Origin: the human T2T-CHM13v2.0 reference genome, Homo sapiens
DNA: 64,000 bases
Reading direction: 5' to 3' (one strand)
Assembly: GCF_009914755.1 (NCBI RefSeq)
Contig: NC_060929.1
This document shows positions 44,493 through 51,197 of the stretch, piece by piece. The notes under the pieces are model-generated. The model saw only the letters and a list, made by a program, of their open reading frames with translations, made no database searches and was not told the DNA's origin. Each line of letters opens with the position of its first letter. The stretch's first letter is position 1. Made by a program: the position numbers and the translations under genes.

Positions 44493-47400
44493 GTCTTCTA
44501 GGCTGTAGGGTGGTTCCTACAACCACAGCCATGATTGTCTTGTGTCTTCTGTCTGCGCAACTCCCCTCAAACAATTTTGTTCCTCTGGGGTCCTGAGTAT
44601 CTTAATTCTGGGATAACTTTTAGACTAAGAAAAAATTGTTTTCTCCAGGCTGTTGCCAGTGGCATTATTTCCTGTGAGAGTTCCATGGAACTGAGACATT
44701 TCCCTGTCATAGAGCTTTTGAAATTTCCCTGGAGCACAAAACTTGGGCCCAGGGGAATGCGGAGAGAGTCTTGGGAACAGCAGGTGCTGGGCCGAGCAGG
44801 ACAAACTAGACTCTAGGCCAAAAAACTCTTAAGAAAGCCGATGTGGTTTCGGTTTTCATTTCCTCTGGTTCCCTTACAATTTCTGCCTGTCATCTGTCTT
44901 AAAATCATGGCCAGGGGAATGTCAGGCCCTGATTCTATGATAGAATATGTGGTGAGTTTCTAAAAAAAACCAAGGGGGTTGGGGGGGGGCCCTAGGCCTA
45001 TCTTAGACCTATTAAAGCAGAATCTTAGGGAGTAGTGTTTGGGAATCTTTTTCTTCTTTCTCTTAAGCTCCCTAGGTGGTTCTGATGCACACAGAAGCTT
45101 GTAAGCCACTACTGTGCAGTGTAGAACTATGGACAGACTTGAATTTGAATTCTGGATCTTCCACTTAGCTGACTGTTCTTGGGCAGTTATTTAACCTCTC
45201 CTAGCTTTAGTTGCCTTATCCCTGAAATAAGGATCAAATGGTACCTACTATATGTGGTAGCTGGAGAGGCTAAATAAAATAATATTAGGCACTTAGTAAG
45301 GACTGGAACAATGAGACATGGTTTGTGTTATTAATTATCCATAATAAGGATCAGCTTGGTTTTGTCTCACCTTTTTCTCCCTTCTAGGACCCTCCAGAAT
45401 GAGGAGACAAGAAACTTCCTCTAAAGGGTTCCTGTTAAGGTTTCTCCCCAGGACAGGTCCAGCATGACTACCCCCAGCCTAGTCTGCACCCTGCTGAAGC
45501 TGCTGGTTCTCAGCTTGGAGCTCCTGATTCTGTGTGGCCAGGTTGATGGTTTCTTCCAGGGTGCCCGCCAGCAGGCTGCAGTGATGATGCTCTGTGGTCA
45601 TGGCCCCCTCCTCCCACTGGCCCTGCCAGGCTCAGAATACCTGTGCCCAGATTCAGAGATGCCTGTCACTCAGCCAGCCTTGGAGCCAGCTCAAGGCCTA
45701 CCCTCCATCCCCACTGATGGGCAGCACATGGTGTGTCTGAGCTCGGGTGGCCTGCACATGCAGGTCATAGAGGGCTGCCAGGTCCTGCTCTGCTGTGTTC
45801 CGCTCTTCCTGAAGGGCCTCCAGCTGGAATCTCAGCACCATCTGTTCCTGCTGCCATCTCTGCCTCTCCTCGCAGGCCTTCAGTGATAACACATACTCTT
45901 TGGAGTGCCACCTGTGTGCCAGGCTCTGTGCTAAATACTTCAGGTGTATTATTTTATCCAATAACAACCATATGTGGCATTGCCATCTTACAGATTTGGC
46001 AACAGTGGATCAAAGAAGTGACCTAACTTGCCCAAATTCTCATGGCTAGTAAAGGTCAGAGCTGACATGGCACATGCCTTTCAATGGTTTGCAGCTCTCC
46101 TTGGGGTAAAGTCCAAAGCCAGAGCTGTGGCACACACTTGTCTCTTTAGCCTTGCTTCTGACTACGCACCTGTTCAGCTCCAGCCAGACTGGAGAATTTG
46201 CAGTTCCCAGACCCACTTTGCCATTGCTTCCCTCTGAACTTTTGCTTATACTGTTTTGTCTTCTCTAAGAACATGTCCCCACTCCACCCACCCCCCATCA
46301 GTTACTGATGAGCAGTAACTGCCCTTGTTAAGCTCAGTGTCCAGTGAATTCCCCTGGCTGATCTCTGCCTGTCCTTTGAGGCTCAACTTAGATTCCATCT
46401 CCTCTGATCCACTCCAGCCTGGGTCAGATATGCCTTTTTGGTCCCACACAACCCTAGATCCCCCATCCCATCACTTAGCACTGAGAATTGCCTCATCTAT
46501 CCCTGACAAGGCTGTGAGGGCCATGAGAGAGGGTATGAACTGGTCGGTTGTGATTGATGATGGATCCTAGCCCCTAGCACAGTGCCTGGACCAATTAGAG
46601 CCTCAAGTCCCCTATTTGACCCTCCTTACCTCCTCTTCAGCCACCAGGCCTTTGACCTGGTCATCTGCCACCTCCTCCTTCTGTTCCAAATGCTTCAGCT
46701 TCTCTCGAATCCAAATTTGGTGCTGCTCCCTCAGTCTCTGCCTCTGGGCCTGGGCCAAGAAGAGCGGCCGGGCCACATCTGGTATCTGCTGGGCTTGGTC
46801 AGAAGTTCATGTGTGTGCACGGATTTAGGACCAGAGCCCAACTTTTCCAATAGAACCTCATCACCAGGGCTGCTCCCAGAACAACATCCAGGACCTAACT
46901 AGCCTGGAAGAGCTTGTAGCCTGGGCAGAGACTCAGGAGGCCATGGTGGGGAGAGGAAGGTAGTGGCTCTGCCAGGAGGTGCCATAGTGCCTCTAAGGAT
47001 CCTATACCCTTAATCCAATAAGTAGGAAAACAGTCCCTCCCCATGGCCTTGCCTTAGGGGTCTAGTCACCTTCAGGTCCTTTATTTGTCAAAAACTTCAT
47101 ATTTCTCCCTGATATTGGGGCAGGGTAAGCAGGGGCACATTAGCTGGGCTCTGCAGCTCTTCACTCCCCCTACAGCTTCTAGTCGTTCCTGGGGTACATG
47201 AGGTATTACCTATTCCTTAGGGTGCCTGAGAGGATTCTTTTGGTGGAGCCACGCCTTAGAGTTGCCATTCTTCCTGCCACTAGAGGAAAATGTAATTAAT
47301 CACACCAAAGGCAGGGAAGACGTCCCACTCCCAGCTCATCCCCAAGTCCCAGACCCACCTTGGGGCTCTCCCTCGAGGCATGGGCTCTGGTTTACTGGTG

Positions 47401-47924
47401 ACTCTATCACCTGCTGAGAAGATATTAGAAGTGATCGTTCCACACCTTTCCTCCCAGTACAGTGTAGGTTAAGATCAGGGCTTGGAAATCAGACAGATCA
47501 GGGTCCCAGCCCCTCCTCTTCTTAGCTGAATGACCTCGAGCAGGTGACTGGCCTAGTCTCCATGTGCTTCTCTATCAAATCGAGCTGATAAAAGTTGTGG
47601 AGAGAATGAAATGAAGTACTGCACCGAAAGCACTGGGCAGTAAGGCACTTGCTCAATAAATAGGAGCTACCATGCCTGATTCCCAAGCCCCAAGGCTGTA
47701 AAAACAAGTTCTAAGCAACTATGAAAAAAGAAGAGAAAGGCCAGGAGAGGCTGGACAGGGACAGGGTTTCAACCACCCTGTGATAAATCATGGAAGACCA
47801 GAAAGGCCATGCAGCCTAAGGAGATGAAAGAGCACTAGATTAGGAGTCTAAGGACTTGAGTGTGATTATACTTCTGCTGCTCCTGATTATGCCTGTGACC
47901 CCAGGCTCACAGGTCTCACATCTT

Positions 47925-48533
47925 TTATTTTTCTTTTTCTTTTTTATGACAGAGTCTCGCTGTGTCACCCAGGCTGGAGTGCAGTGGTGCAATCTCAGCT
48001 CACTTCAACCTGCGCCTCCTGGGTTCAAGTGACTCTCCCACCTCAGCCTCCTGAGTAGCTGGGACTACAGACATGCGCCACCATGCCTGGCTAATTTTTG
48101 TATTTTTTAGTAGGGACGGGGTTTCACCATGTTGGCCAGGCTGGTCTCGAACTCCTGGCCTCAGGTGATCTGCCCATCTCAGCCTCCCCAAGTGTTGGGA
48201 TTACAGGCGTGAGCCACTGCGCCCAGCCCTCTCACATCTTTTCTTTTTTGAGATGGAGTTTCACTCTTGTTGCCCAGGCTGGAGTCCAATGGCGTGATCT
48301 CGGCTCACTGCAACCTCTGCCTCCCAGGTTCAAGTGATCCTTCTGCCTCAGCCACCCGAGTAGCTGGGACTACAAGCGTGCGCCACCACACCAGGCTAAT
48401 TTTTGTATTTTTAGTAGAGATGGGGTTTCTCCATGTTGGCCAGGCTGGTCTCAAACTCCTGACCTCAGGTGATCCGCCCACCTCGGCCTCCCAAAGTGCT
48501 GGGATTACAGGCATGAGCCACCGCGCTCAGCCT
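47925..48533 (-). mobile_element. Two tandem antisense Alus
   Basis: Alu consensus; recurring ctcacatctttt at the junctions (TSD-like). Confidence 0.9.
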
Positions 48534-50177: not shown

Positions 50178-50483
50178 TGTTTTTTTATTTTTTATTTTTT
50201 TGAGATGGAGTCTCACTCTGTCGCCCAGGCTAGAGGGCAGTAGCACGATCTTGGCTCACTGCAACCTCTGCCTCCCAGGTTCAAGCAGTTCTCATGCCTC
50301 AGCCTCCCAAGTAGCTGGGACTACAGGCACCTGCCACCATGCCCAGCTAATTTTTGTATTTTTAGTAGAGATGGAGTTTCACCATGTTGGCCAGGCTAGT
50401 CCTGAACTCCTGACCTCAGGTGATCTGCCCACCTCAGCCTCCCAAAATGCTGGGATTGCAGGCATGAGCCACCACACCCAGCT
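50178..50483 (-). mobile_element. Alu, antisense
   Basis: Alu consensus with T-tail. Confidence 0.9.
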
Positions 50484-51197
50484 GAGGCTTGATTTTTAAT
50501 GGGTGTATGAAAATAGGAGACTCCCTTCTCTTCTCTTATCCTCTCTATTCTCATCTATAAATTAGGCCTGCCTCTCTTTCCTTATTTGTAAATTATATCT
50601 GCCTCATGGGGTTGTGGTAAGAATCAAAGGCATTTGTGCAAAAATGCTTGGTAAGTGGTTTAAGGTCTCTGAAGGGTGAGGGGTTACTTTCACTATTGAC
50701 CTTACTTTGCCTCTCCAGTCTCTGTCAGCCTAGGCACTCTGGGGCCCTCTTGGAGGGTCAGACGCTCTCTCTGGGCTGAGGTTGGGGCTGAGGCCGGTTG
50801 CGTGATGGGTGAGGCAGGCCTAAGGACAGATCTCAGAGCTTCCCAAAGAACTCCACACTCTCCCCCTGGCCACCTTGGGGGTCCAGGCGAAGAAGTAGGC
50901 CACTGTAGTTGTTTCCTTCCAAGAGCCATGAGACAATCCAGGGCAAAGAGCCCTCCGCCTCCTCACCAACAACTTCACCAGCCAACACCCGCAGCAGGGG
51001 GCAGTCTCTGCAAGAGGGAGAGGAAGAAAGGCGACGTCCACTGGTGGATGGGGAAAGAAACTGGACAGAGTTACACTCTGATGGAAAGGGCAACTATTTC
51101 CAGAAACTTTTGTGTATCACCAGACAGATTTGAAACATTGTACAGATCTTTATTTTATTACTATTATTTTTTAAATTACAAAAGTAATACATTCTCC

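What the first reader, a model, noticed from the sequence alone, without database searches (positions are those of the whole stretch)
45479..51007. Hidden seven-exon dead gene: degenerate kinesin-motor end plus coiled coil, candidate unitary pseudogene
Seen: minus-strand segments with polypyrimidine/AG acceptors and, except one, GT donors. The first four join in phase: DCPLLRVLAGEVVGEEAEGSLPWIVSWLLEGNNYSGLLLRLDPQ|GSSLSLLQAALLGASGRRMQVKQVRPTLWDAVEEARARRAGLRPLRLGLLEDTLTDSGLSQLGRALRELE|VIESPVNQSPCLEGEPQ|VAGRMATLRRG.... They are followed by ...AQAQRQRLREQHQIWIREKLKHLEQKEE...EEE|ACEERQRWQQEQMVLRFQLEALQEERNTAEQDLAALYDLHVQATRAQTHHVL|VF*AWQGQWEE...LATQNQELQAENQQLQQGAD*. Lesions are few: TAG 46901-46899, an inferred frameshift near 46810, a donor reading ATCAGT at 45718, and TGA 45634-45632 (CGA>TGA-like). 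Inference: SWLLEGNNYSGLLLRLDP...SLSLLQAA...QVKQVRP resembles the kinesin motor C-terminus (LQDSLGGNSxTxMIxxISP...TLSTLRYA..AKxIKN). I recall an uncharacterised mouse gene, E230025N22Rik, next to Slc35a4; this is unverified. If right, this is a lineage-specific loss of an unstudied kinesin-like gene. Upstream exons would lie beyond the L1 block. The 46.6-47.4 kb exon calls are the least certain.
Basis: partly seen in the sequence, partly recalled or inferred. Interest (0 to 1): 0.8.

Follow-up and report, generated by a model that had tools for sequence, protein, structure and literature searches.

The report
Dead human kinesin-like gene, already catalogued
This stretch holds the broken 3' half of the human copy of a little-studied kinesin-like gene (mouse E230025N22Rik) that other mammals keep intact; GENCODE already lists it as a unitary pseudogene, so only its kinesin ancestry and exact lesions are new.

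Summary
The exons are real. On the minus strand, 45479-51007 holds the last eight exons (not seven) of a 16-exon gene. Its first eight exons lie outside the window at 66305-70413.

Exon B alone finds 160 mammalian proteins (E down to 1.5e-29), two of them named 'Riken cDNA E230025N22 gene'. All ten human-genome matches to a lemur orthologue fall in this one locus, so there is no paralogue.

In the conserved frame the human copy carries:
- a 2-bp deletion in exon 3
- a 33-bp in-frame deletion in exon 11
- a 1-bp deletion plus a TAG in exon 13
- a lost donor on exon 15
- a TGA in exon 16

The kinesin guess holds. The placental profile matches non-placental family members (hhalign E 1.6e-67). Those match solved kinesin motors (E 4e-37), and a modelled lemur orthologue matches kinesin motor structures. 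The placental proteins lack the P-loop and both switch motifs, so the motor is probably inactive.

The pseudogene is already published: ENSG00000283602, in a supplementary table of Mudge et al. 2019. Verdict: correct and ordinary, with a modest new angle.

The parts
50874..51007 (-). It corresponds to the kinesin alpha4-to-beta8 region. The frame is intact, with an AG acceptor and a GT donor. RefSeq LOC112267855 reads through this donor to a stop at 50833.
   Evidence: motif correspondence
49255..49463 (-). Exon e10: GSSLSLLQAALLGASGRRMQVKQVRPTLWDAVEE...RALRELE. It corresponds to kinesin alpha6 plus the start of the neck coil. Intact.
   Evidence: (160 homologues)
49132..49182 (-). Human lacks the 11 codons (R[AT]EAMRLPEPQ) that other mammals have before the donor. 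This is a 33-bp in-frame deletion at 49132/49131, and a GT still follows.
   Evidence: no match to the missing peptide in 47401-49200
47359..47410 (-). Exon e12: VIESPVNQSPCLEGEPQ. Intact. e12 and e13 are skipped together in some species' gene models.
47210..47279 (-). Exon e13: broken. A 1-bp deletion in the GG run at 47250-47249 shifts the frame (VAGRMATLRR / LHQKNPLRHPKE). In the conserved frame, TAG 47212-47210 sits where macaque has Q.
46630..46788 (-). Exon e14: QIPDVARPLFLAQAQRQRLREQHQIWIREKLKHLEQKEEVADDQVKGLVAEEE, the start of the C-terminal coiled coil. The frame is open. Human differs at 2 positions invariant in the 28 orthologues (L to R, F to L).
45719..45877 (-). Exon e15: ACEERQRWQQEQMVLRFQLEALQEERNTAEQDLAALYDLHVQATRAQTHHVLP (coiled coil). 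The frame is open, but the donor is AT (45718-45717) instead of GT, and the last codon gives P where others have Q or R.
45479..45640 (-). Exon e16 (last): VF*AWQGQWEEGAMTTEHHHCSLLAGTLEETINLATQNQELQAENQQLQQGAD*. The premature TGA at 45634-45632 sits where others have R or Q. It removes the best-conserved part of the coiled coil.
51008..64000 (-). The in-window part of the roughly 15.3-kb intron between e8 (66421-66305, outside the window) and e9. By the given annotation it holds repeats, a SNORA27-like copy and the HAUS1P1 processed pseudogene.
   Evidence: annotation supplied with the finding

Best explanation
The region is the 3' half (exons 9-16) of a transcribed unitary pseudogene. It is the single human counterpart of mouse E230025N22Rik. 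GENCODE calls it ENSG00000283602, and RefSeq partly models it as LOC112267855.

The ancestral gene encodes a protein of about 570-690 residues. It has an N-terminal kinesin-fold domain, a short neck coil, a poorly conserved linker and a C-terminal coiled coil of about 150 residues.

The family runs from sharks to placental mammals. A Walker A P-loop (GxxxxGK[ST]) survives in sharks. Placentals have RGRETEAP in its place, and the switch I and II positions read ACSLL and LQLPGA. The mammalian protein is therefore most likely a non-hydrolysing kinesin-like scaffold that dimerises through its coiled coil, not a motor. This step is inferred, not shown.

In human the conserved frame is broken in several places:
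- a 2-bp deletion in e3
- a 1-bp deletion plus a TAG in e13
- a lost e15 donor
- a TGA in e16
- a 33-bp in-frame deletion in e11
- a TGA 20 codons after the ancestral ATG

The locus is still transcribed, and its exons have been annotated as 5' UTR of long APBB3 transcripts. It most likely makes no functional protein.
For: **Exons and orthology**
- Exon B finds 160 proteins at E<=0.01; the 120 listed run from 1.5e-29 to 5.3e-22. All that carry a species name are mammals, and two are named 'Riken cDNA E230025N22 gene'.
- Six orthologues map exon by exon onto 45479-70485, minus strand.
- In the exon table all 15 internal acceptors are AG and 14 of 15 donors are GT.

**Lesions**
- They are read directly from the sequence against orthologues.
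- The RefSeq human protein P0121 (270 aa) shares only e5-e9 with the family. Its first 91 residues are e4 in another frame plus an Alu-like exon, and its tail is intron read-through.

**Single copy and synteny**
- All 10 matches of the lemur protein in the whole human genome lie at C5:141095482-141120485.
- A rodent model (P0139) joins CD14 to this gene. Its first 288 residues map to human CD14, 56 kb upstream on the same strand.

**Published status**
- Mudge et al. 2019, supplementary file 5, row 18 lists hg38 chr5:140569962-140594570 (minus) as ENSG00000283602, with mouse orthologue E230025N22Rik. [quoted passage not shown]
- LOC112267855 appears in a human blood RNA-seq table.

**Kinesin descent**
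- The placental profile A1 finds 212 proteins at E<=0.001 in 1.84 billion representatives.
- 15 of 20 distant members scanned reach the Pfam PF00225 gathering score, with a best of 97.7 bits.
- A1 against the non-placental profile A2 gives hhalign probability 100, E 1.6e-67, over 545 columns.
- A2 against the PDB finds 152 distinct sequences at E<=1e-5. All 60 shown are kinesins, with a best of 4.1e-37, and the match covers the whole motor.
- An AlphaFold2 model of the lemur orthologue (43-sequence alignment, mean pLDDT 78.2) finds kinesin motors in all but two of the listed Foldseek rows. Those two are chains of a sperm-axoneme entry whose protein the title does not name. The best hit is 6a20, E 1.3e-18, TM 0.60 on the target.

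**Dead motifs**
- Walker A GxxxxGK[ST] is present in 4 of 43 aligned family members and in 0 of the 19 placental-like rows.
Against: - RefSeq labels LOC112267855 protein-coding.
- Exons e5-e10, e12 and e14 keep open frames and good splice sites.
- Each internal lesion sits in an exon, or exon pair, whose skipping keeps the frame: e3 is 48 nt ancestrally, e12+e13 is 123 nt and e15 is 159 nt. Gene models of other species do skip these same exons. An exon-skipped human isoform ending at the e16 TGA is therefore not formally excluded.
- Human departs from otherwise invariant columns only slightly more than macaque: 5 of 137 against 3 of 137. There is little sign of long neutral decay. Human e15 dropped out of that alignment and is not counted.
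- No human exon and no placental orthologue reaches the Pfam kinesin threshold alone. That is 0 of 5 exons, 0 of 11 upstream ORFs, and 3 of 7 orthologues with sub-threshold hits of 12-19 bits against a cut-off of 29.3.
- phmmer of the lemur protein against the PDB found nothing. Membership therefore rests on transitive profile evidence.
- The structure model used an alignment that contains more kinesin-like relatives, so the fold is not independent of them.
- No ape or monkey DNA was available, so the lesions could not be dated or shown to be fixed.
Confidence: 0.9

Rival explanations
1. The human locus still encodes a working protein. It would be either the 270-residue RefSeq product or an exon-skipped isoform (without e3, e12-e13 and e15) that ends at the e16 TGA.
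For: - RefSeq calls the locus protein-coding.
- e5-e9 are open and conserved in P0121.
- The same in-frame exon skips occur in models of Saimiri, Propithecus, cats and macaques.
- Human shows few extra amino-acid changes at invariant columns: 5 of 137.
Against: - P0121 begins with 91 residues that are out of the conserved frame or Alu-derived, and it ends in intron read-through.
- It lacks the first four conserved exons and everything after e9.
- Any isoform loses the last 49 residues, the best-conserved coiled-coil segment.
- Five independent disabling changes in one gene are unlikely under constraint.
- GENCODE curators called it a unitary pseudogene.
Confidence: 0.06
2. The relic matters as RNA, not protein. 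Its promoter and exons would serve as alternative 5' UTR exons of long APBB3 transcripts, or as a non-coding RNA. This reading does not exclude the pseudogene reading.
For: [quoted passage not shown]
- APBB3 lies downstream on the same strand, by the annotation supplied.
- LOC112267855 is quantified in blood RNA-seq.
Against: No test of function was run. Transcription of a recent pseudogene from its old promoter is expected anyway, and read-through models are common annotation by-products.
Confidence: 0.15
3. It is a duplicated or processed pseudogene of a gene that is intact elsewhere in the human genome.
For: None was found. The whole-genome search used a stricter first look, so weak matches could be missed.
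Against: - All 10 matches of the lemur protein are in this locus.
- The locus keeps its introns and the ancestral neighbour CD14.
Confidence: 0.02
4. The segments are chance open frames in non-coding DNA.
For: None.
Against: - Per-exon tblastn E-values reach 1e-38.
- Exon B finds 160 homologues and exon A finds 176.
- Splice sites are conserved.
Confidence: 0.005

Closest known systems
GENCODE unitary pseudogene ENSG00000283602 / mouse E230025N22Rik (Mudge et al. 2019, Genome Res 29:2073, supplementary file 5, row 18)
   Same: It is the same locus, strand and span (hg38 chr5:140569962-140594570, about 24.6 kb, against 45479-70485 here). The mouse orthologue is the same. The kinds of lesion also agree (PTCs, splice-site mutation).
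   Different: That table calls the product an 'Uncharacterised protein' and gives no lesion coordinates. I saw passages of the main text and that one row. Supplementary files 1 and 8 were not searched.
Kinesin motor domain (Pfam PF00225). The nearest solved motors by sequence are kinesin-8, KIF4 (kinesin-4) and KIF13B/KIF1A (kinesin-3)
   Same: The domain order and fold agree. The conserved blocks are in register: FTFDxV, GYN/GYS before the P-loop position, VSxxEIY/LSLVQ, LGL-V-E...V, LGGN/LEGNN and SALxLA.
   Different: Placental members lack the Walker A, switch I and switch II motifs and fall below the Pfam cut-off. No one kinesin family stands out: best E-values are 4e-37, 7e-35 and 8e-35 for three different families. 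The 'KIF4-like' names of the shark proteins are automatic. No phylogeny was made.
Kinesins with impaired or lost ATPase, such as KIF26A/B, KIF7 and Drosophila Costal2 (recalled from the literature, not from any call)
   Same: A kinesin fold kept as a binding or scaffold module, with degenerate nucleotide-handling motifs.
   Different: No relationship to these was tested. KIF7 structures appear among the weaker PDB hits. Whether the E230025N22Rik family binds microtubules is unknown.
Another primate kinesin-like unitary pseudogene in the same table: hg38 chr7:2383698-2388652, mouse Gm4869, 'similar to KIF19'
   Same: It is the same kind of event: a kinesin-like gene kept in mouse and disabled in primates.
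   Different: It is a different locus and family, and it was not examined here.

Membership tests
Kinesin motor domain (PF00225) | Sequence match to the family profile at or above the curated gathering score (29.3 bits) | tested here: not met
   Human exons gave 0 of 5 hits and upstream human ORFs 0 of 11. Placental orthologues gave only sub-threshold hits, in 3 of 7 (12.1, 14.8 and 19.1 bits). The score is met by 15 of 20 more distant family members (31.4-97.7 bits).
Kinesin motor domain (PF00225) | Homology to bona fide kinesin motors over the whole domain, by profile methods | tested here: met
   The placental profile against the non-placental profile gives hhalign probability 100, E 1.6e-67, 545 columns. 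The non-placental profile against the PDB finds 152 distinct sequences at E<=1e-5, and all 60 shown are kinesins (best 4.1e-37, profile 48-312 against chain 51-346 of 347). The placental profile alone finds only one PDB chain, a kinesin heavy chain, at E 0.085.
Kinesin motor domain (PF00225) | Kinesin motor fold | tested here: met
   The AlphaFold2 model of lemur P0033 has mean pLDDT 78.2. Foldseek against the PDB gives 355 matches at E<=0.001, and all but two of the listed rows are kinesin motors (best E 1.3e-18, target TM 0.60-0.71). Caveats: the alignment used for the model includes the more kinesin-like relatives, and a first model from placentals only was unusable (pLDDT 39.8).
Kinesin motor domain (PF00225) | Walker A P-loop GQTxxGK[ST] (motif recalled; tested as GxxxxGK[ST]) | tested here: not met
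   It is present in 0 of 19 placental-like rows, which read G[RWC]E[TAK]..[AT] with a 2-residue gap; human e4 reads RGRETEAP. It is present in 4 of 43 family members, namely three sharks and P0269.
Kinesin motor domain (PF00225) | Switch I SSRSH and switch II DLAGSE (motifs recalled) | tested here: not met
   Placentals read (A/S)C(S/C)LL and LQLPG at these positions. The nearest in the family are S(S)RCS and DLAGGA or DLTGEAE in non-placental members. No row has the canonical motifs.
Kinesin motor domain (PF00225) | Microtubule-stimulated ATPase and microtubule binding | not testable with these tools
   This needs biochemistry on the mouse or another intact protein.
Unitary pseudogene | Disabling lesions in the ancestral reading frame | tested here: met
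   The lesions are a 2-bp deletion in e3 (outside the window, near 69955-69953), a 1-bp deletion in e13 with TAG 47212-47210, the e15 donor AT at 45718-45717, and TGA 45634-45632 in e16.
Unitary pseudogene | Intact orthologue at the same genomic position in other species | tested here: inconclusive
   Many full-length protein models exist in other mammals. A rodent model fuses it to CD14, and the published table pairs it with mouse E230025N22Rik. No other mammal's DNA could be read here, so intactness rests on gene models that vary in exon use.
Unitary pseudogene | No functional paralogue in the same genome | tested here: met
   All 10 matches lie in this locus. The search used a stricter first look, so matches under about 60 bits may be missed.
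Unitary pseudogene | Lesions fixed in the species | not testable with these tools
   Only one human assembly was held. GRCh38 carries lesions of the same kinds.

The most novel reading that the evidence does not exclude
E230025N22Rik and its relatives may form a kinesin family that the searchable literature does not describe. The family is present from sharks to placental mammals. Its motor lost the ATP-binding P-loop and switch motifs on the way to mammals, yet it stayed conserved as a kinesin-fold domain plus coiled coil. That would make it a 'pseudo-kinesin' that mouse keeps and the human lineage discarded, perhaps only in apes. If so, mouse has one more kinesin-superfamily gene than the usual count (recalled as 45), and humans are natural knock-outs of it.
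Probability: 0.5. Interest if true: 0.55.

Novelty: already known. Interest (0 to 1): 0.3.

Why it matters
As a pseudogene call it adds little, because GENCODE has listed it since 2018-19.

Three points may still be useful:
- **RefSeq model.** The 'protein-coding' LOC112267855 CDS looks spurious at both ends. Its N-terminus is out of frame and its C-terminus is intron read-through, so it deserves review.
- **Identity of the product.** The 'uncharacterised protein' can now be called a divergent kinesin with inactivated nucleotide motifs. That gives anyone working on mouse E230025N22Rik testable ideas: microtubule binding without ATPase, and dimerisation through the C-terminal coil.
- **A natural knock-out.** Loss of such a gene in the human lineage is relevant when mouse phenotypes are carried over to human.

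Tried and rejected
- **Pfam on human pieces.** Single human exons and upstream human ORFs gave no kinesin hit. 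Only weak, sub-threshold coiled-coil-type hits appeared for the last exon. The exons are too short to be informative.
- **Direct PDB searches.** phmmer of the lemur orthologue found 0 hits at E<=10. The placental profile found one marginal hit. Only after adding distant relatives did the link become significant.
- **First structure model.** The AlphaFold2 model from 28 placental sequences had mean pLDDT 39.8. It was discarded and not searched.
- **Relaxed-constraint test.** I counted deviations at columns invariant in all other sequences. Human scored 5 of 137, macaque 3 of 137, and hedgehog and mole-rat more. This was not decisive. It is confounded by which species have close relatives in the set, and human e15 was lost from that alignment.
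- **Dating the lesions.** No primate DNA is held. The only hint is that no non-human ape protein appears among the 120 listed of 160 hits or the 120 listed of 176 hits. Old World monkeys, New World monkeys, tarsier and lemurs do appear.
- **Literature.** 'E230025N22Rik' occurs in 6 papers. I read a passage of one and saw only the search listing for the other five; none is titled as a study of the gene. 'LOC112267855' occurs in 1 paper. 'ENSG00000283602' and 'ENSMUSG00000044719' occur in 0. 'Unitary pseudogene' with 'kinesin' occurs in 8 papers.
- **Subfamily placement.** I considered placing the family in a kinesin subfamily and left it open. Kinesin-8, -4 and -3 structures score alike, and no reference set was at hand for a tree.

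Full report

Yes.

I fixed the boundaries by mapping six orthologous proteins onto the window plus the adjoining 8.5 kb (locus L002 = window 63001-72500). The six were macaque P0004, squirrel monkey P0007, mouse lemur P0033, cat P0048, porpoise P0042 and donkey P0009. I then read the splice sites.

The gene has 16 exons. e1-e8 lie outside the window:

| Exon | Window coordinates |
|---|---|
| e1 | 70413-70347 |
| e2 | 70169-70087 |
| e3 | 69976-69931 |
| e4 | 69796-69677 |
| e5 | 67531-67454 |
| e6 | 67182-67100 |
| e7 | 66580-66494 |
| e8 | 66421-66305 |

e9-e16 are the finding:

| Exon | Window coordinates |
|---|---|
| e9 | 51007-50874 |
| e10 | 49463-49255 |
| e11 | 49182-49132 |
| e12 | 47410-47359 |
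| e13 | 47279-47210 |
| e14 | 46788-46630 |
| e15 | 45877-45719 |
| e16 | 45640-45479 |

All 15 internal acceptors are AG, and 14 of 15 donors are GT.

**2. What gene is it?**

- Exon e10 alone (69 residues) finds 160 proteins at E<=0.01 among 3568 candidates. The 120 listed have E from 1.5e-29 to 5.3e-22, and all that carry a species name are mammals. Two are named 'Riken cDNA E230025N22 gene' (Nannospalax, Jaculus). Two carry the UniRef name 'Kinesin motor domain-containing protein'.
- Exon e9 with its read-through tail finds 176 proteins at E<=1e-10. The top hit is the 270-residue human RefSeq protein of LOC112267855 (P0121).
- A lemur orthologue searched against the whole human assembly gives 10 matches, all at C5:141095482-141120485. 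That is this locus, so there is no paralogue. The search used a stricter first look, so weak matches could be missed.
- A rodent gene model (P0139) fuses CD14 to this gene. Its residues 2-288 map to human CD14 at window 107522-108388, on the same strand. This supports conserved synteny.
- Supplementary file 5, row 18 of Mudge et al. 2019 (PMC6886504) lists hg38 chr5:140569962-140594570, minus strand, as unitary pseudogene ENSG00000283602. The mouse orthologue is E230025N22Rik (NM_172831.2). [quoted passage not shown] The central claim is therefore correct and already published.

**3. The lesions**

All are read in the frame conserved across orthologues.

- **e3.** Human reads EQNFTFD in one frame and VLGPDAAQ in the next, where 26 of the 28 aligned orthologues show the FDRV block (one model skips the exon and one is garbled there). 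Four bases stand where R and V need six, so this is a 2-bp deletion near 69955-69953. A TGA follows at 69943-69941.
- **e11.** Human ends at ...MLQGA and lacks the 11 codons R[AT]EAMRLPEPQ. A GT follows directly. No match to the missing peptide (up to 3 substitutions) occurs in any minus frame of 47401-49200. This is a 33-bp in-frame deletion.
- **e13.** The exon is 70 nt where 71 are needed. The G run at 47250-47249 has lost a base. In the restored frame the last codon is TAG (47212-47210) where macaque has Q.
- **e15.** The donor is AT (45718-45717), and the last codon gives P where others have Q or R.
- **e16.** TGA 45634-45632 sits where others have R or Q. It cuts off the last 49 residues.
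- **e1.** A TGA (70425-70423) lies 20 codons after the ATG that lemurs, carnivores and ungulates use. Monkey models start at the next ATG (70413), so this may be older.

The RefSeq protein P0121 shares only e5-e9 with the family. Its first 91 residues are e4 read in another frame, entered from an ATG inside the shifted e3, plus an Alu-like exon. Its last 13 residues are intron read-through. That CDS looks like a by-product of the lesions.

**4. Points against a simple 'dead gene'**

- e3, e12+e13 and e15 can each be skipped without losing the frame. Models of other species skip the same exons.
- Human differs from otherwise invariant columns at 5 of 137 positions, against 3 of 137 for macaque. 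Human e15 fell out of that alignment.
- Human and macaque P0002 are 443 of 489 identical (90.6%).

The decay is therefore slight, which fits a recent loss. An exon-skipped, C-terminally truncated product cannot be excluded; I give it about 6%.

**5. Timing**

Among the listed hits, Old World monkeys (Papio, Macaca, Trachypithecus, Pygathrix, Piliocolobus), New World monkeys (Saimiri, Plecturocebus), tarsier and four lemurs have protein models. Several of these are intact through e15 and e16 (P0003, P0130, P0007, P0033). No ape other than human appears.

This hints at loss on the ape lineage. It is indirect evidence, because no primate DNA could be read.

**6. Is it a kinesin?**

Direct tests on the human and placental sequences are weak:
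- PF00225 matches 0 of 5 exons and 0 of 11 upstream ORFs.
- 3 of 7 orthologues give sub-threshold hits of 12-19 bits against a cut-off of 29.3.
- phmmer of the lemur protein against the PDB finds nothing.
- The placental profile A1 (28 sequences) finds one PDB chain, kinesin heavy chain 1goj_A, at E 0.085.

The link becomes firm through distant relatives:
- A1 searched against 1.84 billion representatives finds 212 proteins at E<=0.001, of which 39 are at E<=1e-30.
- 15 of 20 of the more distant full-length members reach the PF00225 gathering score, up to 97.7 bits.
- One of them, P0171, is a basking-shark protein. Its listed relatives are sharks, a skate and coelacanth.
- P0171 matches 119 distinct PDB sequences at E<=0.001; the 60 shown are all kinesins.
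- The non-placental profile A2 (20 sequences) matches A1 with hhalign probability 100, E 1.6e-67, over 545 columns that include the C-terminal coiled coil.
- A2 matches 152 distinct PDB sequences at E<=1e-5, and all 60 shown are kinesins. The best is 4.1e-37, across the whole motor.

WIVSWLLEGNNYSGLLLRLDP lies on L..LGGN..T.MI..ISP, and SLSLLQAALLGA..R.QVKQV lies on TL.TL.YA.RAK.IKN.

A second AlphaFold2 model of the lemur protein used 43 family sequences and reached mean pLDDT 78.2. Its Foldseek search gives 355 PDB matches at E<=0.001. All but two of the listed rows are kinesin motors, with a best E of 1.3e-18. The fold partly reflects the relatives in the alignment.

**7. How the ancestral protein probably works**

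Walker A GxxxxGK[ST] is kept in 4 of 43 aligned members (three sharks and P0269). Several others are close to it. None of the 19 placental-like rows has it; they read GRETEA with a two-residue gap. The switch I and II positions read ACSLL and LQLPG (the canonical motifs are recalled, not from a call). Human e4 and e8 carry the same degenerate forms.

- **Shown:** kinesin descent and fold, loss of the nucleotide motifs, and a conserved C-terminal helix of about 150 residues.
- **Inferred:** the mammalian protein does not hydrolyse ATP and acts as a dimeric kinesin-fold scaffold.
- **Unknown:** whether it binds microtubules.

One paper notes dN/dS above 1 for this gene in hares (passage seen). 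That fits the fast evolution seen here.

**8. Comparison and verdict**

The locus is a member of the class 'unitary pseudogene', and it is the very one GENCODE lists. Its parent family belongs to the kinesin superfamily by homology and fold, but it fails the catalytic-motif criteria. It has no clear subfamily: kinesin-8, -4 and -3 structures score alike.

I found no paper that treats E230025N22Rik as a kinesin. Automatic database names do say 'kinesin motor domain-containing' for some orthologues.

The finding is real, ordinary as a pseudogene, and already known. The modest new content is the family assignment, the dead motifs, the lesion map and the doubtful RefSeq CDS.

Noticed in passing
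L002:6064-6252 and L002:6677-6976 (window 69064-69252 and 69677-69976), minus strand: The RefSeq human protein of LOC112267855 (P0121, 270 aa) starts at an ATG inside the frameshifted e3. It reads e4 in a non-conserved frame and passes through an Alu-like exon before rejoining the conserved frame at e5. Its 'protein-coding' label looks unsafe.
   Followed up: partly
window 47522-47600, minus strand: A possible repeat-derived (MIR-like by eye) alternative exon (LDLIEKHMETRPVTCSR) lies in intron 11. The same exon is used in a baboon isoform (P0001). A similar one (LHFMDEKMETQKTKHLPEQ) appears in porpoise and ruminant models.
   Followed up: no
window 47915-48545: Two tandem Alu elements lie in intron 11. 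The short sequence aaaagatgtgag appears three times, before, between and after them. This looks like target-site duplication from insertions at one spot.
   Followed up: no
window 45396-45455, minus strand: Downstream of the stop at 45481-45479, a tail resembling ...CPGEK..QE(S/P)FRGSFLSPHS is still recognisable in another frame. Cetaceans, ruminants, horse and some lemurs translate this tail. Monkeys, cats and mouse lemur stop at QGAD or QGIG as human does.
   Followed up: partly
window 107522-108388 (outside the window; CD14): A rodent gene model (P0139, Scotinomys) joins the CD14 coding sequence to this gene. This is probably an annotation fusion of neighbours, but it is useful as evidence of synteny.
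   Followed up: partly
window 50083-50160, minus strand: The annotated 3' end of the RefSeq last exon (50083) lies just after an A-rich run next to an Alu. The transcript end might reflect internal priming rather than a true poly(A) site.
   Followed up: no
hg38 chr7:2383698-2388652 (not in this window): The same supplementary table of Mudge et al. [quoted passage not shown]
   Followed up: no
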